A stretch of 64,000 nt of DNA from Oscillospiraceae bacterium. GTDB taxonomy: Bacteria; Bacillota; Clostridia; Oscillospirales; Ruminococcaceae. Every line of letters starts with the position of its first letter. The first letter of the stretch is position 1. Positions 19,646 through 56,833 of this stretch are shown here, piece by piece. Position numbers and translations under genes: made by a program. The stretch is taken from the NCBI GenBank assembly GCA_045536425.1, contig JAZSNN010000031.1, positions 60,203 through 124,202 on the forward strand. The letters are read 5' to 3'. The notes under the pieces are model-generated. The model did no database searches. It was not told where the DNA came from and saw only the letters and a list, made by a program, of their open reading frames with translations.

Positions 19646-19660
19646 AAATAATCTGCGATT

Positions 19661-19755
19661 ATTTGTTAAGTGCTTCGTTTACTGCAACTGCGCAAGCAAC
19701 TGTCATACCAACCATGGGGTTGTTACCAGCGCCGATGAGACCCATCATCTCAACG
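19661..19755. repeat. left direct repeat (attL-like): displaced duplicate of the last 31 codons of the GGGtGRT-family gene
   Basis: 91/95 identity with 36309..36403. All four mismatches fall on synonymous third codon positions when read on the minus strand (...GIGAGNNPMVGMTVACAVAVNEALNK*). Confidence 0.75.
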
Positions 19756-26580: not shown

Positions 26581-27294
26581 ATGGCAACATATGCTTATTG
26601 CAGAGTATCAACACCGCATCAGAGGTTAGAGAGACAAATTACCAACATCACAGCAATCTATCCAAACGCTATTATCATTAGAGAATTCTTTACAGGAACA
26701 ACCCAGAACAGACCCAACTGGGAAAAACTCATGGGGCAAATAAAATCGGGAGACGTCATCGTTTTTGATAGTGTCTCTAGAATGAGTCGTAATGCCGAAG
26801 AAGGTTTTAGAGATTACAAAATGTTATATGAGCGTAACATTAGCCTCGTCTTTCTCAATGAACCTTTAATTAATACTTCTGTCTTTGATTCTACACGTAA
26901 CAACTTATTGAAAATTGATATCGAAACCGGTAATAATGCCGTTGATGAGTTTTTCAAGGGCAACGTTCAGCTCATAAATAACTTTATGATGGCTCTTGCC
27001 GAACAACAAATCAAAGCAGCCTTTGAGCAATCCGAAAAGGAGGTCACAGACTTACATACACGCATTAGTCAGGGGATGCGTGAGAGCAAAAAGAACGGTA
27101 AACAAATCGGGCTCACAAAGGGAACGACATTGATTACTAATAAATCAATCAAGTGCAAAGAAATAATAAAAAAGCATGCCACCGAATTCGGTGGCATGCT
27201 TAGTGACAAAGAGGTAATGACACTCTGTAAAATATCAAGGAATTCTTATTACAAATATAAGGGAGAATTAAAGAAACAAAGTACCAACACCTAA
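26581..27294 (+). CDS. small serine recombinase (resolvase/invertase family) with C-terminal HTH
   Basis: 237 aa with catalytic Ser in YCRVSTPHQ, conserved D/R residues (DSVSRMSRN) and a C-terminal HTH; GGAGG RBS. Confidence 0.85.
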   Translation: MATYAYCRVSTPHQRLERQITNITAIYPNAIIIREFFTGTTQNRPNWEKLMGQIKSGDVIVFDSVSRMSRNAEEGFRDYKMLYERNISLVFLNEPLINTSVFDSTRNNLLKIDIETGNNAVDEFFKGNVQLINNFMMALAEQQIKAAFEQSEKEVTDLHTRISQGMRESKKNGKQIGLTKGTTLITNKSIKCKEIIKKHATEFGGMLSDKEVMTLCKISRNSYYKYKGELKKQSTNT

Positions 27295-35222: not shown

Positions 35223-36161
35223 CTAACTTTTCAATGAAATGTGCTTCCTGCCGTGGAACTTATCTAACACATTTATTTCATCAACCTGTTTTGCCACATC
35301 ACTGACTAAGAGGTTAATATAATTCTGTGTTATATCTAAGCTTGAATGACCTAACAGTTTTGAGAGTGACACGACGTTGCCTCCACTCAGAATCCATTGT
35401 TTCGCAAACGTATGTCTATACCTGTGTATTCCTGTTGTCTCTACGCCGCGCTTTTTATTATACTCATAGAGCTTATGATAGCAGGTACTTTTAATCAGTT
35501 GTTGACCAAACACATTGCAAAACAGATAGTCATCATCAGACTTATGCTGTCGATATTTTAAATATTCGGTCAAGATATTGACCATTGTTTGATTAAGTGG
35601 AACGATCAACGGTTTTCTATTTTTAGTCACATTCACATAGACGACGCTGTTATCAAAATCAATATCCTTGACTTTTATGTGCATCAGGCTTCTTTGTCTC
35701 ACAGCAGTTGAAAACAAGAAGTTAGTCATAACCCAGCACTGATATTCAGTGAAAGAGCATTTCTTTAAATCGGGCTTCTTAAGCAATAACCTCAGTTCCT
35801 GCTCGTCATACGTTTCTACGTGGGATTTATCGACCTTTATTGACTTCATTTTAAAAGGCTCAATATAGCCCTCATTCATAAGAAAATGCAATGTGGTTAT
35901 CAAATCTCGCAGGTATGAGTTAATACTGACATCATTGTTAAGCGTTGCCTTCAAGTGCAAGACATATCTGTTATATTCATTTTCGTTGAGTCTTTCTATT
36001 GGCATTTCAGGATCAAAGAACTTGAAAAACTGTGTATAGCTTTGGCGATAATGGTTGATAGTTCCTTGTCTTAAATTACGCTGTCGGCAATACTCCAGAT
36101 ACCTATCACACCCCTCTTCAAAAGTAATAGATTTTGTTGCTTTCATTTTCAGTTTGTGCAT
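35223..36161 (-). CDS. tyrosine-type site-specific integrase
   Basis: Conserved R...HxxR...Y catalytic signature (HRYRHTFA ... LGHSSLDITQNY) with an N-terminal SAM-like core-binding domain. Start chosen at MHKLKMKATK with a GTGAGG RBS 9 nt upstream. The gene abuts the right att repeat. Confidence 0.85.
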   Translation of the reverse strand: MHKLKMKATKSITFEEGCDRYLEYCRQRNLRQGTINHYRQSYTQFFKFFDPEMPIERLNENEYNRYVLHLKATLNNDVSINSYLRDLITTLHFLMNEGYIEPFKMKSIKVDKSHVETYDEQELRLLLKKPDLKKCSFTEYQCWVMTNFLFSTAVRQRSLMHIKVKDIDFDNSVVYVNVTKNRKPLIVPLNQTMVNILTEYLKYRQHKSDDDYLFCNVFGQQLIKSTCYHKLYEYNKKRGVETTGIHRYRHTFAKQWILSGGNVVSLSKLLGHSSLDITQNYINLLVSDVAKQVDEINVLDKFHGRKHISLKS

Positions 36162-36306
36162 TGTAACATACCTCACTTTTAACATAAAAAATATAGACAC
36201 ATCATCAAAGAAAACTCTAAAATGATGTGTCTAACTTTTTATTTATTGGTTTTTGTAACAGGTCTTTTACAAGTTGCCCAAAAGCTTTAAAAAGCCTTAT
36301 AAATCC

Positions 36307-37314
36307 TTATTTATTAAGTGCTTCGTTTACTGCAACTGCACATGCAACTGTCATACCAACCATGGGGTTGTTACCTGCGCCGATGAGACCCATCATCTCA
36401 ACGTGTGCGGGAACGGAAGAGGAACCTGCAAACTGTGCATCGGAGTGCATTCTTCCCATTGTATCGGTCATACCGTAGGAAGCGGGGCCTGCAGCCATAT
36501 TGTCAGGATGGAGAGTTCTTCCTGTGCCGCCACCGGAAGCAACGGAGAAGTACTTCTTGCCCTGCTCAACACACTCTTTCTTGTATGTGCCTGCAACGGG
36601 GTGCTGGAAGCGTGTGGGGTTGGTGGAGTTACCTGTGATGGAAACGTCAACGCCCTCTTTGTGCATGATAGCAACGCCCTCACGAACGTCGTCTGCACCG
36701 TAGCAACGAACCTTTGCACGCTCACCGTCGGAGTATGCTGTTTCTTTTACTATCTCAAGCTTGCCTGTGTAGTAGTCAAATTTTGTCTGCACATAGGTGA
36801 AGCCGTTGATTCTGGAGATAATCTGTGCGGCATCCTTACCGAGACCGTTGAGGATAACGCGGAGGGGCTCTTTACGAGCTTTATTAGCACTTCTTGCAAG
36901 ACCGATAGCGCCTTCAGCAGCTGCGAAGGACTCGTGACCTGCGAGGAATGCGAAGCACTTTGTCTCATCTCTGAGAAGCATTGCGCCGAGGTTACCGTGG
37001 CCGGTACCAACCTTACGGTCGTCAGCAACGGAGCCGGGGATACAGAAGGACTGGAGTCCGAGGCCTATCTTCTCTGCAGCCTCTGCAGCGGATTTAACCT
37101 GATCCTTGATAGCGATAGCGCAGCCTACTACATAAGCCCAGCCAGCGTTCTCGAAGCAGATAGGCTGAATACCTTTAACGATATTATAAGCATCAACACC
37201 TGCTTTATCGCAGATTTCCTTAGCTTCCTCAATGGAGGAAATGCCGTGTTTATTAAGTTCTGCGTTGATTTGGTCTATTCTTCTTTCATAACTTTCAAAC
37301 AAAGCCATTGTCAA
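36307..37314 (-). CDS. GGGtGRT-family protein
   Basis: 335 aa containing the eponymous SGGGTGRTLHP motif and a Gly/Ala-rich C-terminus. Confidence 0.7.
   Translation of the reverse strand: MTMALFESYERRIDQINAELNKHGISSIEEAKEICDKAGVDAYNIVKGIQPICFENAGWAYVVGCAIAIKDQVKSAAEAAEKIGLGLQSFCIPGSVADDRKVGTGHGNLGAMLLRDETKCFAFLAGHESFAAAEGAIGLARSANKARKEPLRVILNGLGKDAAQIISRINGFTYVQTKFDYYTGKLEIVKETAYSDGERAKVRCYGADDVREGVAIMHKEGVDVSITGNSTNPTRFQHPVAGTYKKECVEQGKKYFSVASGGGTGRTLHPDNMAAGPASYGMTDTMGRMHSDAQFAGSSSVPAHVEMMGLIGAGNNPMVGMTVACAVAVNEALNK
36309..36403. repeat. right direct repeat (attR-like) forming the current 3' end of the GGGtGRT-family gene
   Basis: The repeat starts exactly at the stop codon of the gene at 36307..37314 and is contiguous with the remainder of the gene. 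Confidence 0.75.
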
Positions 37315-51768: not shown

Positions 51769-51810
51769 CCGCTCCGAAGTTAAATTCGGGGCGGAATTCT
51801 TTTTATTTTT
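51769..51810 (+). terminator. intrinsic terminator after rny
   Basis: CCGCTCCGAA-gttaaa-TTCGGGGCGG followed by a T-run. Confidence 0.55.
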
Positions 51811-51834
51811 TATTCTAATTTTTTAAAAATACTA

Positions 51835-51863
51835 TTGACATATCAGATTTGTTGTGGTAGAAT
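51835..51863 (+). promoter_or_regulatory. promoter of tRNA-Leu (TTGACA-17-TAGAAT)
   Basis: Perfect -35 with 17-nt spacer; -10 ends 15 nt before the tRNA. Confidence 0.55.
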
Positions 51864-51878
51864 ATCAAGGTACCAAAC

Positions 51879-51961
51879 GCGAAGGTGGCGGAATAGGCAG
51901 ACGCGCACGTTTGAGGGGCGTGTGGGCAACCATGTGGGTTCAAGTCCCATCCTTCGCACCA
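51879..51961 (+). tRNA. tRNA-Leu (anticodon GAG), long variable arm, CCA encoded
   Basis: GCGAAGGTGGCGGAATAGGCAGACGCGCACGTTTGAGGGGCGTGTGGGCAACCATGTGGGTTCAAGTCCCATCCTTCGCACCA; anticodon stem CACGT/GCGTG with loop TTGAGGG. Confidence 0.8.
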
Positions 51962-52005
51962 TAAAAACAGTTCAACCATTAGGTTGGGCTGTTTTTATTT
52001 TGTTT

Positions 52006-52113
52006 GGGACTTGAATATGAGTTCCAAGAGCACAAGTGCAACGCAGTGCGATTGGGAAGAACAGTCCGGTGGACTGTTCTGTTCACGAATGGATAGTCCC
52101 ATCCTTCGCACCA
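52006..52113 (+). ncRNA. tRNA-3'-end-capped structured repeat, copy 1 (ends in an exact copy of the tRNA-Leu T-stem 3' half + acceptor 3' strand + CCA)
   Basis: GGGACTTGAA...(~85 nt with internal hairpins ACAGTCC-ggt-GGACTGT and GCAC-aa-GTGC)...AGTCCCATCCTTCGCACCA. It is preceded by the tRNA-Leu terminator and followed by its own terminator at 52121..52150. Confidence 0.5.
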
Positions 52114-52162
52114 AATAAAGAAGACTCAACCGACAGGTTGGGTCTTTTTTATTTCATTCGAT

Positions 52163-52373
52163 GGGACTTGAATATGAGTTCCAAGAGCACAAGTGCAACG
52201 CAGTGCGATTGGGAAGAACAGTCCGGTGGACTGTTTCGTTCGTGAATGGCAAAGCCGACGAGCGCTGCCGGTGGCAGAAGAAGCGAGGAGGTCTTTGATG
52301 CCGTCGTCGGCTGGATGCGAACGGAATGTGAGCAGACAGACGCTAACGACAAATGGAAATCCCATCCTTCGCA
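52163..52373 (+). ncRNA. tRNA-3'-end-capped structured repeat, copy 2 (same 5' 95 nt as copy 1, then a ~100-nt insertion with a long-range stem, ending TCCCATCCTTCGCA)
   Basis: The first ~95 nt are near-identical to copy 1. The insertion contains the AGCCGACGA...CGTCGTCGGCT inverted repeat. A terminator AGTCCCTGCCGaaatatCGGCAGGGACTTTT follows at 52374..52405. Confidence 0.45.
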
Positions 52374-52408
52374 AAGTCCCTGCCGAAATATCGGCAGGGA
52401 CTTTTGGT

Positions 52409-52969
52409 TTATTTTGCTATTCTTTTTTTAATCGCCTTCGTCGCTTGTTCTATCACCCAAAACACAAAGCAGGTTATTGTTGCTATCAAGAGCGATTGCA
52501 GGACGTCATACAGCGTTATGCTTTTTATCATATCAAAAACTGTAACTGTAATTTCTTCGGGTTTTGCTATGATGGTATCCGCAGGATAACTTGTATAAGG
52601 CGATCCAAAGAATCTTGGATTTAGATAAAACTCCTTAAAACAAAGGTAGGCTAGTGTGGTTGTAGTTGCCATAATACCGTAATACAGCGGTCTTTTCATC
52701 TTTACAAAGATTTGCACAGCAAAGACTATGGTTGCCATTACAAGCGCAGGAACAGCGTTATACAGTACTGTGTTGAGAACGATTTCTACAAAATCGGGGG
52801 ATTTTGAGAAAAGCAAAAAGTAGTCCTTCGTCCCAATCCACTTCGGTGTATTTATCTGTGAATCTGCAAAGACATATGTCGCTACATATACTGCAACTAT
52901 AAGTACAGTTGGTATCACAAACCACAAAAGTTCCTTTTGTCTTTTCTTCATTTTGTTCCTCCCTATCAA
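52409..52969 (-). CDS. hypothetical polytopic membrane protein
   Basis: 186-aa ORF with ~5 hydrophobic helices; alternative start MKKRQKELLWF six codons in. Confidence 0.5.
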   Translation of the reverse strand: MIGRNKMKKRQKELLWFVIPTVLIVAVYVATYVFADSQINTPKWIGTKDYFLLFSKSPDFVEIVLNTVLYNAVPALVMATIVFAVQIFVKMKRPLYYGIMATTTTLAYLCFKEFYLNPRFFGSPYTSYPADTIIAKPEEITVTVFDMIKSITLYDVLQSLLIATITCFVFWVIEQATKAIKKRIAK

Positions 52970-53133
52970 CTAATGTCTGATGTCAAATACGTATCGGGGC
53001 TCCAAAAAGTATTTTTTAAAGCCTTCCTTTATTTTATAATATCATGCTGTTATTAATAAATCAAGGTGTTTTTGAAGGAATATTATTTATATTGCTGATT
53101 CCGAAAAAAATGCGTTTTTATGAAAATTTATAG

Positions 53134-53162
53134 TTGACTTTTCGGAACAAGTGTGGTATCAT
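53134..53162 (+). promoter_or_regulatory. promoter of tRNA-Pro (TTGACT-17-TATCAT with TG extension)
   Basis: Same architecture and spacing to the tRNA 5' end as the tRNA-Leu promoter. Confidence 0.5.
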
Positions 53163-53177
53163 ATATAAGCAAAATAC

Positions 53178-53253
53178 GTCTGGGTGTGGCGCAGCTGGTA
53201 GCGCGCTACCTTGGGGTGGTAGAGGCCGCAAGTTCAAGTCTTGTCACTCAGAC
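53178..53253 (+). tRNA. tRNA-Pro (anticodon GGG), CCA encoded
   Basis: CTGGGTGTGGCGCAGCTGGTAGCGCGCTACCTTGGGGTGGTAGAGGCCGCAAGTTCAAGTCTTGTCACTCAGACCA; anticodon loop TTGGGGT; acceptor stem has one G-U pair. Confidence 0.75.
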
Positions 53254-53297
53254 CAAGAAAAGCCGTCGACTTTCGTCGATGGCTTTTTTTGCGTGGC

Positions 53298-53407
53298 GAG
53301 ACTTGAAGATGAACTCCAAGAGTGCAAGTGTCAACGCAGCACGATTGGGAGAAACAGTCCAGTGGACTGTTTCGTTCGTGGTTGGACAAGTCTTGTCACT
53401 CAGACCA
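53298..53407 (+). ncRNA. tRNA-3'-end-capped structured repeat, copy 3 (homologous to copies 1/2 but capped with the tRNA-Pro 3' end CAAGTCTTGTCACTCAGACCA)
   Basis: It is ~85% identical to copy 1 over the internal ~85 nt. The ACAGTCC-agt-GGACTGT hairpin is preserved with a loop change. It is preceded by the tRNA-Pro terminator (53254..53290) and followed by its own terminator (53408..53440). Confidence 0.5.
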
Positions 53408-53504
53408 AAAAGAGATGCACGAAAGTGCATCTCTTTTTGCATTTATCGCAGAAGCTTTACGGTTTGCACAAACTTCTTGAACTTGCGGGCTCTACCATTG
53501 CCAT

Positions 53505-53570
53505 CCCCGAGCGGTTGTCGCTTTGGCGACGAGCGAGTGGGGGAATCCCCGCTTTTGTAGGCGGGAGTGA
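53505..53570. repeat. left copy of a ~45-bp direct repeat flanking the GDSL-hydrolase gene
   Basis: GTCGCtttgGCGACGAGCGAGTGGGGGAATCCCCGCTTTTGTAGG versus GTCGCagtaGCTACGAGCGAGTGAGGGCATCCGCCGCTTTTATATGG at 54818..54875. Confidence 0.45.
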
Positions 53571-53574
53571 TGAA

Positions 53575-54738
53575 TCAATTGACATCTTCGCTGAACAGAG
53601 CTTTAATCATTGCATTGCTTATCAGATCCATACCAAGCTCATTAGGATGGACACGACGGTCGGCGATATATTTATCAAAATTTTTCCGATTTTCTGTTAT
53701 GCCGCAGTTTTCAAGGTCTACCATAGTGTAGCCAAAGTGCTTGATAATCTTTTCCAGCTCTGCATTAAACTCAGTGGGAGCCGGTACAACGTCTTTTCCA
53801 TCTAAATCCGGCACTCGACGCGGCAACAGTCCCATGCAGTATACCTCAGCGTCGGGATAGCGGACGCTGATTTTGTGGAGCATGATAGCGTAGGCTTCGC
53901 AGGCGGTAGTGGGTTCTGCATCGGATTGAATCAGCGCGTCATAATCCAAATCAGCCGTACCCAGAGTATCCTGATAGTAGCTGTAGTCGTTAGTTCCCAT
54001 AAACACAACGATTATATCAGGTTCTTCACCTGTATTATCGTTGTGAAGCTGCTCACATCGGCTGACATAAGCGCCCTTTGCATCGTCACGTTCTTGCAGT
54101 ACATAGCTTCCGCTCCAGGAATTGTTGACGCACAGCTTCATTTCCAGAGCATCGATAACCTGTTGCCACCACGTTTCCGATTGGGTGACTTCCGTATTTT
54201 TTACACCGTAATACACAGCATTTTCACCGATCGTAGAGTTATAATCGGAATTATTCGATATACCTATGTAGGTTGAAATACTATCGCCAAGGATTGAGAT
54301 AGTTTTACCTGCATAGGGGTTGGAAGTATAATCGGAGAAAAGGGGCACCTCTTCGCCATAGGTGAAGAGCTTACTATCTGCGGTATCCTCCAGTTCTCTC
54401 GCATTATAATCTTCGCCGATCAGAGCAACAAGTGCTTCCTCCCGGGTGGTGTAGGTTCCAACGGGCTCGCCTTTCTTAACAGCTATGACCTTGCCCTGTG
54501 TTACTTCATACAGGAACAGCTTTGGCATTTCGATTTTATCAGCGTTCTCTGCCATATATTCGGTGTACGCGTCCTTCGCCGCCTGCTTGTCATAGTTATC
54601 CTGCGCTTTAGCGTCGGCCTCACGCAAGATCGGAATCATTACCGATGCCAGTATGACAACGACCGCAACCACAGTCACGAGCACTGCAGCAATTAAAACT
54701 TTTTTGTTTTTTGTTCTTTTCATATCATTTATCCTCAT
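53575..54738 (-). CDS. secreted SGNH/GDSL-family hydrolase
   Basis: 387 aa with N-terminal TM/signal anchor, GDS(I) block ILGDSIST and catalytic D/H-containing block VVFMGTNDY...; C-terminal catalytic domain. Confidence 0.75.
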   Translation of the reverse strand: MRINDMKRTKNKKVLIAAVLVTVVAVVVILASVMIPILREADAKAQDNYDKQAAKDAYTEYMAENADKIEMPKLFLYEVTQGKVIAVKKGEPVGTYTTREEALVALIGEDYNARELEDTADSKLFTYGEEVPLFSDYTSNPYAGKTISILGDSISTYIGISNNSDYNSTIGENAVYYGVKNTEVTQSETWWQQVIDALEMKLCVNNSWSGSYVLQERDDAKGAYVSRCEQLHNDNTGEEPDIIVVFMGTNDYSYYQDTLGTADLDYDALIQSDAEPTTACEAYAIMLHKISVRYPDAEVYCMGLLPRRVPDLDGKDVVPAPTEFNAELEKIIKHFGYTMVDLENCGITENRKNFDKYIADRRVHPNELGMDLISNAMIKALFSEDVN

Positions 54739-54817
54739 ATCAGATATTTTGTACTTTCATTGTACCATATTCCGCAAAGAATCTCAAGTTTTCCTCTCAA
54801 ATCGGCAATAAAAAGAT

Positions 54818-54875
54818 AAGTGTCGCAGTAGCTACGAGCGAGTGAGGGCATCCGCCGCTTTTATATGGAAAAAGG
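54818..54875. repeat. right copy of the direct repeat flanking the GDSL-hydrolase gene
   Basis: See feature 53505..53570. Confidence 0.45.
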
Positions 54876-54879
54876 ATGC

Positions 54880-54950
54880 GAAAAATCGCATCCTCTATTT
54901 TTTATATTTTCTTTTAGTTGCTAGGCCTCCGCGAATGTGTCGCAACATTG
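54880..54950. repeat. displaced duplicate of the spoIIID 3' end (last 12 codons) plus its terminator stem
   Basis: Forty-eight consecutive identical nt with 56568..56630. The minus strand encodes ...RHIRGGLATKRKYKK*. The stem GGATGCGA/TCGCATCC is conserved while the loop differs. Confidence 0.65.
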
Positions 54951-55315
54951 AGAGAGGCGTTTTCTCCATTGGAAGCAGAAATCCCAGCGTTTACAAGAGT
55001 ATCGCTTAAAAAACCAGGATAACAAACAATCACGCGCCTCGCGAGAGGAGCGTGTTCCTATATTGTCAAAAGAAAGGTCTATTATGGCACGACCAATCAC
55101 GTAGTCAAAACAATATAGGCTTTTCCTTGCTTTGTTCTTTTACAAACAGTTAAGTGTCCCAGTATACACCGCTTTTTGCAGCGCCTCAATGGGCGTATCC
55201 AAATTATAATTAGTATTCAAAAAACTGTCAACTTTGGTTGGCGGGATTTTTGCTTTTTATTGTTTTTTTGGGGCGGTTGTGGTATATTTTATTCATAGTG
55301 CTTTTGGAGGTTTTT

Positions 55316-56551
55316 ATGCGCAGGTATAGATTTGGTAAAATTATTGCTCTCGTTTTGTTTGTTGTCCTTTCCTTTTCCGGATGTTTTTCGGATTTCGACT
55401 TAATCTATGATGATTACAGCGATTCATATTCATATGACGTCAGTTATGATTACGTTTCCGCCGGACCATCTTATGACGTTTCTTTTGAAGAAAGTTCTTC
55501 TTGTTCGAGCGAAGACCCATCTGAATACGCCTCGTCAGCTAATGTTTCTTCAAAGATTGAAGAACCGCAGATTCCAAAGATATGCAGCTTGGTTGAGTTG
55601 AGGGATTATTTTAAAGATAACCTGAGAAACGACGTTTTGGTGGTACAATTTGAGTGGCTTGGAGAGGAAGATTTATCTGCAAACGAAATAGCACGTATGA
55701 CCATGACCTGTTACGTTAATTACAGGCGCACAGGCAATAAATATACCGTCACCTTTACCGAATATCCCGGTGACAGAATTGTTGACGCTTATTTTTCGGG
55801 CGACAGGTCCAAACTTAACGTAGGTGAGATTTCCGCTTTGGAGAAGGCGATTGAAATTGTCAATGAGGCAAAGGCTGTTACCTCCGATTTAATCGATTTG
55901 GAAGTGTATCTGCACGATTATATCTGCAGAGCCGTGACGTATGACGACAACACGCGTTCTGTTGAGGACCCGATGAATCCTCCGCGAAACCTAACCGTTG
56001 TTGGAGCGTTGTTGGACGGCAGAGCAAACTGTCAGGGATATACCGACGCGTTTTATGCTCTGGCTTCGATTGCGGGATTTACAGTTGACAGGATGTTTGT
56101 TAAAACCGCCAACGATCTACACGTTTTGAGCACCATATATCTTGGCGGACAATGGCTTATCGTAGATTCAACCTTTAACGATTCCAATTACTACGGCAAC
56201 GAGTCCAAGGATTATCATCTGTTTAACGCAAGTAAAGACGTCGTTGAGCAGTTTTCTTGGCCTGAACATTATGAAATGAATCCTATTGCCAACGAGACGT
56301 CGAATTATTTTTACTACAATTACTATGATTGTTATTACCGCAATGCAGAGGAGTTTGCAAATGCTCTTCTTAATCAGTACATAAACGGCAAAACCGAGAT
56401 ACACGGCGCTCTGGTGAGCAGCGAAAGCGTGTATGACGTTTCAGACGCATTTAGCCTCGCGATTGCTAACGCAAATTTCGAACAAGCAGGATATATTTAT
56501 TTTTACAGGCATTTTGGCAACACATACTATTGCCAGTTTTTGATTTCGTGA
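55316..56551 (+). CDS. transglutaminase-like cysteine-protease-domain lipoprotein
   Basis: Start chosen at MRRYRFGK with GGAGG RBS (the track start is 26 codons upstream). It has a lipobox LSFSGC. The Cys/His/Asp core is NCQGYTDAFYALASIAGF ... HV ... D. Confidence 0.65.
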   Translation: MRRYRFGKIIALVLFVVLSFSGCFSDFDLIYDDYSDSYSYDVSYDYVSAGPSYDVSFEESSSCSSEDPSEYASSANVSSKIEEPQIPKICSLVELRDYFKDNLRNDVLVVQFEWLGEEDLSANEIARMTMTCYVNYRRTGNKYTVTFTEYPGDRIVDAYFSGDRSKLNVGEISALEKAIEIVNEAKAVTSDLIDLEVYLHDYICRAVTYDDNTRSVEDPMNPPRNLTVVGALLDGRANCQGYTDAFYALASIAGFTVDRMFVKTANDLHVLSTIYLGGQWLIVDSTFNDSNYYGNESKDYHLFNASKDVVEQFSWPEHYEMNPIANETSNYFYYNYYDCYYRNAEEFANALLNQYINGKTEIHGALVSSESVYDVSDAFSLAIANANFEQAGYIYFYRHFGNTYYCQFLIS

Positions 56552-56587
56552 AATATATAGAAAAGGATGCGATTTAATTCGCATCCT

Positions 56588-56833
56588 CTATTTTTTATAT
56601 TTTCTTTTAGTTGCTAGGCCTCCGCGGATATGGCGTTGGGCTTTGTTGAGGTCGAGCACCTCTTTTACGTTTGCATACAGGCTTGGATTTATCTTTTTGA
56701 GTCTTTCTGCGACGTCCTTATGTACAGTTGATTTACTTATACAAAATTTCTTTGCGGCGGCTCTTACAGTTGCTTTGTTCTCGATTATGTACTCAGCGAG
56801 CATCACCGCTCGTTCTTCTACTACCCCTTTCAC
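56588..56833 (-). CDS. spoIIID: stage III sporulation protein D, mother-cell transcription factor
   Basis: 81 aa aligning along its length with B. subtilis SpoIIID (KSTVHKD, IRGGLATKRKYKK C-terminus). Confidence 0.85.
   Translation of the reverse strand: MKGVVEERAVMLAEYIIENKATVRAAAKKFCISKSTVHKDVAERLKKINPSLYANVKEVLDLNKAQRHIRGGLATKRKYKK

What the first reader, a model, noticed from the sequence alone, without database searches (positions are those of the whole stretch)
54880..56630. Single-gene cassette (transglutaminase-like lipoprotein) flanked by a duplicated spoIIID 3' end plus terminator stem
The last 12 codons of spoIIID and the 5' half of its terminator hairpin (48 identical nt) occur twice: once as the real gene end (56568..56630) and once 1.7 kb to the left (54880..54950). 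The displaced copy still encodes ...RHIRGGLATKRKYKK* with synonymous changes just outside the identical core. The hairpin stem is conserved but the loop is different. This is the same insertion signature as the large island: the element brings a replacement gene end. Here, however, the inserted DNA contains only one cargo gene, a secreted transglutaminase-like Cys protease lipoprotein, and no recombinase. This suggests either a decayed island or an in-trans mobilised cassette targeting the end of a sporulation regulator gene.
Basis: seen in the sequence. Interest (0 to 1): 0.55.

Follow-up and report, generated by a model that had tools for sequence, protein, structure and literature searches.

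The report
Repeat-flanked single-gene insertion behind spoIIID
A 1.7-kb piece of DNA carrying one secreted transglutaminase-like lipoprotein gene was inserted into the last codons of the sporulation regulator gene spoIIID without damaging it; it most likely came from the same locus of a related bacterium rather than from a self-mobile element, so it is a clean but fairly ordinary case of strain-level gene gain.

Summary
A 48-nt perfect direct repeat (54886-54933 / 56579-56626) lies inside an 81-83-nt gapped repeat. The repeat covers the last 15 codons of spoIIID and its whole terminator hairpin, and the two copies bracket 1,693 bp with one intact gene, a transglutaminase-like lipoprotein.

The closest relative found (L087: spoIIID 98% nt, lipase 95% nt) has the exact empty site, spoIIID-terminator-lipase. 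It is colinear with the window once the 1,693 bp are removed, so this is a real insertion, or excision, by crossover within the core. The flanks are reciprocal. The left copy has the resident loop plus foreign RHI codons; the right copy has a foreign loop plus resident RHI codons.

The cargo is not exotic. Diverged alleles of the same gene (55-63% aa) sit next to spoIIID and share its terminator in four related lineages, none with a repeat. The insert's upstream part carries locus-specific modules. No recombinase, phage or plasmid link was found.

Best reading: single-crossover insertion of a circularised fragment from a diverged relative's homologous locus, carried out by host recombination. 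Main rival: an integrase-less, CIME-like element moved in trans. Interest is modest.

The parts
53575..54738 (-). SGNH/GDSL lipase gene. It is the gene that directly follows spoIIID in genomes with the empty site.
   Evidence: Matches Pfam PF16255, PF13472 and PF00657. It is adjacent to spoIIID in L087, L089 and L094. The gene is itself flanked by 44-45-nt direct repeats at 53516-53559 and 54821-54865.
54739..54861 (-). Resident left flank ('a'): the lipase promoter (TTGAGA-17-TACAAT at 54787..54759) and a 45-nt motif. In L087 this stretch is contiguous with the spoIIID terminator.
   Evidence: Promoter scan. Colinear alignment with L087. Motif repeat.
54862..54942 (-). Displaced copy of the spoIIID end (attL-like). 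It holds the original terminator hairpin (54873-54894), a pseudo-stop (54895-54897) and 15 codons, RHIRGGLATKRKYKK. The 48-nt core is 54886-54933. The three foreign RHI codons are 54934-54942.
   Evidence: The loop and U-tract match L087's native terminator. The hairpin folds at -17.4 kcal/mol.
54943..55315 (+). Non-coding left part of the insert ('b').
- 54943-55134 is orphan sequence with no match in any fetched locus; 55135-55176 has only a weak similarity to L088.
- 55177-55251 is a module shared with relatives, including the hairpin CTGTCAACTTTGGTTGGCGG (55225-55244) that follows tRNA-Pro elsewhere.
- The transglutaminase-like gene's promoter is TTGTTT (55260-55265), TG, TATATT (55283-55288), with a GGAGG ribosome-binding site.
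- A perfect TTGACA-17-TATAAT lies on the minus strand at 55231..55203 and points toward the displaced terminator.
   Evidence: No Pfam hit for any of the translated fragments tested (seven of 38-72 aa). No Rfam hit.
55316..56551 (+). Transglutaminase-like (Cys-His-Asp) lipoprotein gene, 411 aa, intact. It is the only gene in the insert.
   Evidence: PF01841 at E=4e-6. Homologues lie at the same locus in L002, L003, L005 and L090 at 55-63% aa identity.
56554..56635 (-). Functional copy (attR-like). It holds the bidirectional terminator hairpin 56564-56587 with the insert-derived loop, the spoIIID stop at 56588-56590, and the last 15 codons. The core is 56579-56626.
56588..56833 (-). spoIIID, intact, 81 aa.
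   Evidence: PF12116 at E=6e-39. TIGR02844 equivalog, above its cutoff.

Best explanation
The 1,693 bp between the repeats were inserted by one reciprocal crossover within the roughly 80-nt 'spoIIID 3' end + terminator' homology. The exchange is resolved inside the 48-nt core.

One partner was the resident site (lipase promoter, terminator, spoIIID, as in L087). The other was a circular, or circle-equivalent, DNA molecule. That molecule carried the transglutaminase-like gene, its promoter, the shared terminator and the last 15 codons of another lineage's spoIIID.

The fragment comes from the homologous tRNA-Pro-to-spoIIID interval of a diverged relative, where this gene is natively the convergent neighbour of spoIIID. 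It is not an autonomous mobile element. Host recombination functions, RecA-dependent or short-repeat RecA-independent, made the exchange. The same 48-nt repeats allow precise loss.

Consequences:
- SpoIIID protein is unchanged and keeps a working terminator.
- The old terminator is stranded upstream of the lipase promoter.
- The cell gains a surface or secreted enzyme gene with its own promoter, next to the lipase it is often paired with.

Shown: the repeat, the empty site, the reciprocal flank pattern, the resident status of the gene in relatives, and the absence of a recombinase gene in the insert.

Inferred: the circular intermediate, the donor, and which enzymes acted.
For: 1. Precise empty site. 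L087 is colinear with window 'a + core + spoIIID' at 94% over 1.9 kb, with no gap at the junction. L089 and L094 also have spoIIID next to the lipase gene.

2. Reciprocal parentage.
   - The left copy's loop and U-tract match L087's native terminator, while its RHI codons (CGA CAC ATT) are unlike those of any of the seven relatives read at that position.
   - The right copy's RHI codons (CGC CAT ATC) match L087, L002 and L003, while its loop is unique.
   - That is the product expected from a-core-d crossing with c-core-b.

3. Differences are confined to the edges of the repeat (P about 0.002). The three RHI differences are all synonymous, so that arm once evolved as coding spoIIID in another lineage.

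4. The cargo is locus-native.
   - The gene is convergent with spoIIID in L002, L003, L005 and L090.
   - Its stop lies about 30 nt from the spoIIID stop across one hairpin in L003 and L090, as in the window.
   - The roughly 100 nt upstream of the gene, including an extended -10, are conserved in L002, L003 and L005.
   - The post-tRNA-Pro hairpin is present in the insert.

5. Housekeeping neighbours are 96-99% aa identical across these lineages, but the transglutaminase-like alleles are only 55-63% identical to the window's. Presence and absence also differ between near relatives in a second pair (L005 has it, L094 does not; lipase genes 94% nt). The interval is therefore a recombination and turnover hotspot.

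6. No recombinase or ORF remnant in the insert. No match in phage or plasmid collections. No integrase next to spoIIID in any of the 10 related loci.

7. GC content of the insert (0.37-0.46) is not sharply different from that of its flanks.

8. Precedent: recombinase-less islands and 46-bp direct repeats recombine independently of RecA in E. coli (PMC5426353).
Against: - No donor has been found. The nearest allele is 63% identical, and the roughly 190-230 nt at 54943-55176 have no clear homologue in any locus.
- A donor diverged enough to differ at 3 of 9 nt in the RHI codons would not be expected to match the resident at 48 of 48 nt next door. Heteroduplex repair or later gene conversion has to be invoked.
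- 48-80 nt is short for RecA-mediated recombination.
- How a 1.7-kb chromosomal fragment would circularise, with spoIIID codon 66/67 joined to sequence upstream of the gene, is unexplained.
- All sequences compared are metagenome assemblies, most of them short contigs. No reads were inspected.
- Polarity is not proven. L087 could descend from a filled ancestor by excision, although its core has the ancestral CTC codon where both window copies have CTA.
Confidence: 0.55

Rival explanations
1. It is a non-autonomous integrative element: a CIME-like remnant of a larger island, or a cassette mobilised in trans. Its attP mimics the spoIIID 3' end. A site-specific (tyrosine or serine) recombinase encoded elsewhere in the genome, or by a since-lost element, inserted it.
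For: - The topology is exactly attL-element-attR, with a restored gene end and a precise empty site.
- An identical core with diverged arms is the classic att pattern.
- The same 64-kb window holds other events of the same style. There is a 16.6-kb island with a tyrosine integrase and a 97-nt duplicated gene end, and tRNA-Leu and tRNA-Pro each have a duplicated 3' end around small inserts.
- L087 carries TnpV and DUF6809 genes just beyond the lipase gene.
- CIMEs are defined as elements that lost their integration and transfer genes but kept attL and attR (PMC6323972).
Against: - No integrase-bearing element was seen at the spoIIID 3' end in any of the 10 related loci.
- A degenerate spoIIID-tail pattern gave 0 hits in the viral contigs and 0 in the JGI metagenome contigs. 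A protein scan of the viral contigs found only an unrelated phage-borne SpoIIID-like gene.
- There is no remnant of a recombinase in the 373 nt of non-coding insert DNA.
- The 'cargo' and its junction with the terminator are the native chromosomal arrangement in L003 and L090, and the insert carries other locus-specific modules. That would be a coincidence for an evolved attP.
- The large island's core shows no evident similarity to this one on reading the two sequences; no alignment was run.
Confidence: 0.27
2. It is a local (paralogous) duplication. An 81-nt copy of the spoIIID end was pasted upstream of a resident transglutaminase-like gene in an L005-like ancestor. The copies then diverged at their edges while gene conversion kept the centre identical. 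L087 arose afterwards by deletion between the copies.
For: - L005 shows that lipase, transglutaminase-like gene and spoIIID can be a resident arrangement in the lipase-bearing clade.
- Both window copies share derived or subclade-specific states: a CTA codon seen only in this strain (window and L001), and ACT and a TAG stop shared only with L087.
Against: - The derived states are distributed reciprocally. The non-functional left copy keeps the ancestral loop, and the functional right copy has the odd loop. Decay of one copy would not give this.
- The three RHI changes are all synonymous, which is unexpected in a non-coding copy.
- The window's allele is only 55% identical to L005's, although flanking genes are 82-98% identical.
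- No mechanism is known for pasting an 81-nt copy 1.7 kb away.
Confidence: 0.1
3. It is an assembly artefact. A metagenome assembler threaded a separate molecule or strain into the chromosome through the shared 48-nt sequence.
For: The window probably comes from a metagenome-assembled genome. All its relatives are MAGs or metagenome contigs, and no reads could be checked.
Against: - The junction core-CGACACATT-b must exist in real DNA for any assembler to output it, and it already implies a core on each side of the gene.
- 48 nt is shorter than the final k of the usual metagenome assemblers (my own knowledge; the source assembly's settings are not known).
- The independent contig L001 stops exactly at the core boundary, as expected if two continuations exist in another sample.
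Confidence: 0.05

Closest known systems
CIMEs (cis-mobilizable elements) and other integrase-less islets flanked by att sites at the 3' end of a gene (ICESt1/ICESt3-type systems; definition in PMC6323972)
   Same: Direct repeats that include the 3' end of the target gene. The gene is restored by element-borne sequence. There are no integration or transfer genes inside, and related genomes show a precise empty site.
   Different: No cognate ICE or IME using this site is known or was found. The 'cargo' is a resident gene of the same locus in relatives, and spoIIID has not been reported as an attachment site: a search of the held papers for 'spoIIID' together with 'attB' returned 6 papers, and none of their titles or abstract starts suggests it (full texts not read).
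Recombinase-less islands flanked by direct repeats, and 'unconventional circularizable structures' (H47 genomic island; 46-bp repeat model; PMC5426353, which also cites Palmieri et al. 2013)
   Same: A DNA segment bounded by short direct repeats, with no recombinase gene. Excision leaves one repeat copy, and the host supplies the recombination function.
   Different: Circular forms and excision were shown experimentally for those. Here they are only inferred from a filled/empty polymorphism. Here the repeat is also a functional gene end plus terminator.
Campbell-type single-crossover integration of a circular DNA through a short homologous segment
   Same: It produces exactly this topology: a duplicated homology segment flanking the insert, with hybrid parentage of the two copies.
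   Different: It is usually seen with engineered suicide plasmids and with hundreds of bp of homology. A natural 1.7-kb chromosomal circle and a homology of 48-80 nt are unusual.
Sporulation-gene intervening elements (skin in sigK, gin in gerE, SP-beta in spsM; PMC5025042, PMC5595907)
   Same: DNA inserted within a sporulation gene of an endospore-forming Firmicute.
   Different: Those elements split the coding sequence, carry or depend on a dedicated recombinase, and are excised in the mother cell to rebuild the gene. Here spoIIID stays intact and no recombinase is present.

Membership tests
Site-specific integrative island / prophage / ICE / IME | Flanking direct repeats (attL/attR) at the insertion point, often the 3' end of a gene that the element restores | tested here: met
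   48-nt perfect core within an 81-83-nt repeat. spoIIID is intact.
Site-specific integrative island / prophage / ICE / IME | Element-encoded integrase or recombinase | tested here: not met
   The insert has a single ORF of 100 aa or more, a PF01841 protein. The seven translated fragments of the 373-nt non-coding part that were tested give no Pfam hit at E<=1.
Site-specific integrative island / prophage / ICE / IME | Empty site in related genomes | tested here: met
   L087 is colinear across the junction. L089 and L094 have spoIIID next to the lipase gene.
Site-specific integrative island / prophage / ICE / IME | Cargo foreign to the locus (found at other sites or on other replicons, or with atypical composition) | tested here: not met
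   Homologues sit at the same locus in L002, L003, L005 and L090. No phage or plasmid match. GC content is unremarkable.
CIME (cis-mobilizable element) | No integration or transfer genes, but attL and attR retained | tested here: inconclusive
   The repeats are present and no recombinase is present. Whether the repeats are substrates of any recombinase is unknown.
CIME (cis-mobilizable element) | A cognate ICE or IME that uses the same att site | tested here: inconclusive
   None in the 10 related loci. There were 0 pattern hits in the viral and JGI metagenome contigs, and one irrelevant viral hit by protein search.
Recombinase-less direct-repeat-flanked circularizable structures (H47 island / UCS type) | Segment bounded by direct repeats, with no recombinase gene | tested here: met
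Recombinase-less direct-repeat-flanked circularizable structures (H47 island / UCS type) | Detectable excision as a circle, leaving one repeat copy | not testable with these tools
   This needs reads or outward-facing PCR. L087 has the sequence expected of the excised state, but it may be primitively empty.
Sporulation-gene intervening element (skin/gin type) | Interrupts the coding sequence, so that excision is needed to rebuild the gene | tested here: not met
   The spoIIID ORF is complete at 81 aa and scores above the TIGR02844 equivalog cutoff.
Integron gene cassette | attC recombination site, and an IntI integrase with attI at the head of the array | tested here: not met
   No IntI is nearby. 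The only tyrosine recombinase found among the ORFs scanned in the window (35223-36200) belongs to another island. The hairpins are plain GC-rich terminators. By eye they lack the RYYYAAC/GTTRRRY core sites; no attC model was available to test this formally.
Transposon / insertion sequence | Terminal inverted repeats, a transposase, and a short target-site duplication | tested here: not met
   No transposase is present. The repeat is 48-81 nt and is partly diverged at its edges. The inverted-repeat scan found nothing at the insert's ends other than the terminator hairpins themselves.

The most novel reading that the evidence does not exclude
The tRNA-Pro-to-spoIIID interval of this uncultured Oscillospiraceae genus may be a cassette-exchange hotspot. 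Single secreted-enzyme genes (the transglutaminase-like lipoprotein, the SGNH/GDSL lipase, a GH16 glycosidase) would be gained and lost as 1.3-1.7-kb units, bounded by direct repeats built from terminator hairpins or gene ends. This would be done by an undescribed recombination system with no linked recombinase, targeted at hairpins or terminators: functionally integron-like but mechanistically different.

Hints:
- The lipase unit is also flanked by 44-45-nt direct repeats, in the window and in L087.
- Gene content of the interval differs in nearly every lineage.
- Presence and absence of the transglutaminase-like gene differ within two independent pairs of relatives that are about 95% identical.
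Probability: 0.12. Interest if true: 0.65.

Novelty: new member of a known kind. Interest (0 to 1): 0.3.

Why it matters
It is a well-resolved natural example of a bacterium gaining a single accessory gene inside the end of an essential developmental regulator gene without harming that gene. All three states are available: filled, empty and 'native neighbour'.

It shows that a 'replacement gene end' signature does not by itself indicate a mobile element. The same signature arises when a neighbouring gene is re-acquired from a relative through the shared gene end.

It also marks the region downstream of spoIIID in these gut Oscillospiraceae as a hotspot for turnover of fast-evolving surface or secreted enzymes. 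That is useful for strain typing, and for asking what selects on these proteins.

If a dedicated recombination mechanism were behind it, that would be more interesting. Nothing found here requires one.

Tried and rejected
- **Genome-contig scan with the neighbouring FAD-dependent protein.** The protein is so conserved (82-89% aa across families) that 79 of the 80 loci had no spoIIID nearby.
- **Exact-protein look-ups.** The window's transglutaminase-like protein and lipase are not on record. The look-up of the window's SpoIIID gave only the 981-nt L001.
- **Degenerate spoIIID-tail DNA pattern.** It gave 0 hits in viral contigs and 0 in JGI metagenome contigs; the genus seems absent from the JGI set. 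The second metagenome scan that this permitted was not run.
- **SpoIIID protein scan of viral contigs.** It found only a 48%-identical phage-borne homologue in the middle of a 137-kb contig, which is irrelevant.
- **BLAST of the whole unit against phages and plasmids.** No match.
- **Second copy of the spoIIID end in L002, L003, L005, L007, L087, L088, L089 and L090.** None was found, while the same method scores 118 on the window as a positive control.
- **L005 versus L089 or L094 as a second clean filled/empty pair.** The borders are messy, with no repeat, and there is probably a deletion in the empty genomes.
- **Degenerate spoIIID body or recombinase remnant in 54943-55315.** Stop codons in all frames and no Pfam hits.
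- **Rfam on 51800-56700 at E<=1.** Only the two tRNAs and sub-threshold noise.
- **Considered by eye and rejected.** An integron attC site, a dif/Xer site and IS200/IS605-type ends. The sequences do not fit, and no matching enzyme is nearby.
Full report
**1. The observation**

The 48-nt sequence TCGCATCC...CCTCCGCG occurs exactly twice in the 64-kb window, at 54886-54933 and 56579-56626. None is expected by chance.

With gaps allowed, the repeat spans 54862-54942 versus 56554-56635, which is 83 alignment columns with 9 differences. It contains:
- the U-tract;
- both halves of a GC-rich stem, with a different loop in each copy;
- a stop codon;
- 15 codons reading RHIRGGLATKRKYKK on the minus strand.

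The right copy is the real end of spoIIID (56588..56833, minus strand, 81 aa). It matches PF12116 at E=6e-39 and the TIGR02844 equivalog above its cutoff.

Outside the core, the three RHI codons differ only at synonymous third positions (CGA CAC ATT versus CGC CAT ATC). All nine differences sit at the two edges of the repeat. A 48-nt perfect run given 9 differences has P about 0.002.

Both hairpins are stable on both strands, at -16 to -18.6 kcal/mol, and both were picked up by the terminator scan.

Between the repeats lie 373 nt of non-coding DNA and one intact gene, 55316..56551. It encodes a 411-aa protein with a weak but above-threshold PF01841 transglutaminase-core match. By reading the sequence, it has a lipoprotein signal (…LSFSGC) and Cys (NCQGY), His (DLHVL) and Asp (IVDST) residues in the expected order.

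**2. Related genomes**

The window belongs to an uncultured Oscillospiraceae/Acutalibacteraceae lineage known only from MAGs and metagenome contigs.

Context look-ups used homologues of the transglutaminase-like protein (referred to below as the TGase-like gene) and of the neighbouring GDSL lipase. They gave 10 distinct loci from the same genus. Across them the FAD-dependent protein is 96-98% and IMPDH 96-99% aa identical to the window's, and spoIIID is 83-98% nt identical.

| Locus | Arrangement between spoIIID and the far side |
|---|---|
| L087 | spoIIID, lipase |
| L089 | spoIIID, lipase |
| L094 | spoIIID, lipase |
| L088 | spoIIID, GH16, lipase |
| L005 / L006 | spoIIID, TGase-like, lipase |
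| L003 / L004 | spoIIID, TGase-like |
| L090 | spoIIID, TGase-like, tRNA-Pro |
| L002 | spoIIID, GH16, TGase-like, tRNA-Pro |
| L007 | spoIIID, apparent GH16 3'-end remnant (by eye), tRNA-Pro |

The window itself reads spoIIID, TGase-like, [second copy of the spoIIID end], lipase, tRNA-Pro.

**3. The empty site**

L087 is the closest relative found (spoIIID 98.0% nt, lipase 94.8% nt).

I joined the window's spoIIID body, one copy of the core, and the sequence to the left of the displaced copy. This construct aligns to L087 over 1.9 kb at 94% identity, with no gap at the junction.

L087's terminator loop (GATTTTC) and U-tract (TTTTTCCATATAAAA) are those of the window's displaced copy, not of the copy now attached to spoIIID. 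The 1,693 bp are therefore an insertion, or the substrate of a precise excision, with the exchange inside the core. The displaced copy is the original terminator.

No other locus carries a second copy of the spoIIID end, while the same search scores 118 on the window as a positive control.

**4. Who contributed what**

Comparison with relatives shows a reciprocal pattern:
- The left copy has the resident, ancestral-type loop side but foreign RHI codons. None of the seven relatives read at that position has CGA or ATT there.
- The right copy has a unique loop (GAATTAAATC on the minus strand) but resident RHI codons, identical to those of L087, L002 and L003.

This is the product expected from one reciprocal exchange between a resident sequence (a-core-d) and a foreign one (c-core-b). 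The foreign partner must be circular, or equivalent to a circle. It is not expected from decay of a local duplicate, where the non-functional copy should carry the changes.

The purely synonymous RHI differences indicate that this arm once evolved as coding spoIIID in another lineage.

Both window copies share a CTA Leu codon where L087 and most relatives have CTC. This fits either one resident mutation or homogenisation of the core during or after the exchange.

**5. The cargo is native to this locus**

- In L003 and L090 the TGase-like gene ends about 30 nt from the spoIIID stop, across a single hairpin, exactly as in the window.
- The roughly 100 nt upstream of the gene are conserved in L002, L003 and L005. 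They include TTGTTT, a TG-extended TATATT and GGAGG.
- The insert also contains the hairpin CTGTCAACTTTGGTTGGCGGGATTTTT. This hairpin follows tRNA-Pro in L002, L005 and L090, and lies beyond the lipase gene in L087.
- A further 48-nt module is shared with L088.
- Only about 190-230 nt at the left of the insert (54943-55176) have no clear counterpart in any fetched locus.

The TGase-like alleles are very diverged. The window's is 55-63% aa identical to all others, while L002, L003 and L090 are 84-88% identical to each other. Flanking housekeeping proteins are 96-99% identical.

Presence and absence also differ within a second close pair: L005 has the gene and L094 lacks it, with their lipase genes 94% nt identical. 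There the borders are untidy and no repeat is present.

So the interval between tRNA-Pro and spoIIID is a turnover hotspot for secreted enzymes. The window's insert looks like a piece of that same interval from an unsampled relative.

**6. What is absent**

- No recombinase lies in the insert, and none of the translated fragments tested shows a remnant of one.
- No Rfam family matches.
- Nothing matches in the phage or plasmid collections.
- No integrase sits next to spoIIID in any related locus.
- The spoIIID tail pattern has no hit in the viral or JGI metagenome contigs.
- The one viral hit by protein search is an unrelated phage-borne SpoIIID-like gene.
- A search of the held papers for 'spoIIID' together with 'attB' returned six papers; none of their titles or abstract starts suggests spoIIID as an attachment site, and I did not read the full texts.

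The large island in the window (repeats at 19659-19755 and 36307-36403) has its own tyrosine integrase (35223-36200) and targets the 3' end of a GGGtGRT-family gene. It shares only the topology with this insert.

**7. Mechanism**

Best supported, at about 0.55: a Campbell-type single crossover. The partners were the resident spoIIID end plus terminator, and a circular or circle-equivalent fragment of about 1.7 kb from a diverged relative's homologous locus. Host recombination carried it out.

Recombinase-less islands, and perfect 46-bp direct repeats, are known to recombine independently of RecA in E. coli (PMC5426353).

The weak points are:
- no donor has been found;
- how the fragment circularised is unexplained;
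- the 48/48 identity next to a 3/9 mismatch requires heteroduplex repair or gene conversion.

Main rival, at about 0.27: a CIME-like, integrase-less element (definition in PMC6323972) moved in trans by a recombinase that targets the spoIIID end. The topology is identical. This rival would gain if a cognate integrase-bearing element were found.

A purely local duplication (about 0.1) and an assembly artefact (about 0.05) are less likely. Against the artefact, the independent contig L001 has a spoIIID sequence identical to the window's. It ends exactly at the last base of the core, as expected at a graph branch.

**8. Consequences for the cell (inferred)**

- SpoIIID is unchanged, and it retains a strong bidirectional terminator shared with the new gene.
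- The old terminator now sits upstream of the lipase promoter (TTGAGA-17-TACAAT with TG, 54787..54759).
- The new gene has its own sigma-A-type promoter.
- GDSL lipase and TGase-like domains are adjacent, or even fused, in unrelated genomes (L091, P0105, P0143). The insertion may therefore restore a functional pair.

**9. Verdict**

This is a new example of a known kind of event, an integrase-less insertion flanked by direct repeats at a gene's 3' end. It occurs at a site not previously noted, and its overall interest is modest.

Noticed in passing
window 53516-53559 and 54821-54865; L087 470-504 and 1776-1810: The GDSL lipase gene with its promoter (a 1,305-nt unit) is itself flanked by 44-45-nt direct repeats (TGTCGC...ACGAGCGAGTGnGGGnATCC...CGCTTTT). 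The alignment score is 48 against a shuffle maximum of 27, and the same repeats occur in L087 at 91% identity. The motif occurs nowhere else in the window. This suggests an older insertion of the same style next to the spoIIID terminator.
   Followed up: partly
window 51879-52400 (tRNA-Leu) and 53180-53415 (tRNA-Pro): Each tRNA is followed by a terminator, a conserved element of about 90-110 nt (52003-52113, 52162-52249, 53300-53377), and then a duplicate of the last 19-25 nt of that tRNA. The element starts with the reverse complement of the T-loop segment (GGGACTTGAA). It is present across the genus (L002, L003, L005, L090). It has no Rfam match and ARAGORN does not call it. It may be a miniature integrative or MITE-like element, or a remnant att site.
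   Followed up: partly
window 19659-19755 and 36307-36403, with integrase at 35223-36200 (-): A 97-nt direct repeat (96% identical) duplicates the 3' end of a GGGtGRT-family gene (36307-37314) and brackets a 16.6-kb island. The island has a tyrosine integrase, a resolvase-domain protein (26581-27294), a BspA-type LRR protein and an SPFH/zinc-ribbon protein.
   Followed up: partly
window 55231..55203 (minus strand): A perfect sigma-70 consensus (TTGACA, 17 nt, TATAAT) lies inside the insert and points toward the displaced terminator. It could drive an orphan transcript of about 330 nt ending at 54873-54894. The -35 element lies inside the stem of the post-tRNA-Pro-type hairpin. The homologous module in L088 sits upstream of a 777-aa ORF.
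   Followed up: no
L091 2226-4325; proteins P0105 and P0143: In unrelated genomes a GDSL/SGNH hydrolase and a transglutaminase-like protein are adjacent in the same orientation, or fused into one polypeptide. This suggests that the two enzymes brought together in the window work as a pair.
   Followed up: no
L087 2029-2663: In the empty-site relative, TnpV and DUF6809 genes (typical of mobile elements) lie just beyond the lipase gene, where the window has the tRNA-Pro region. This is another sign that the interval is an integration hotspot.
   Followed up: no
L093 6001-6222 (IMG/VR contig IMGVR_UViG_3300017589_000061, 137 kb): A SpoIIID-like protein (48% identical to the window's) is encoded in the middle of a large predicted viral contig. 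It would be a phage-borne homologue of a sporulation regulator.
   Followed up: no
L001 973-981: A Logan contig from an independent sample has a spoIIID sequence identical to the window's. It ends on exactly the last base of the 48-nt core, consistent with an assembly-graph branch at the repeat boundary.
   Followed up: yes
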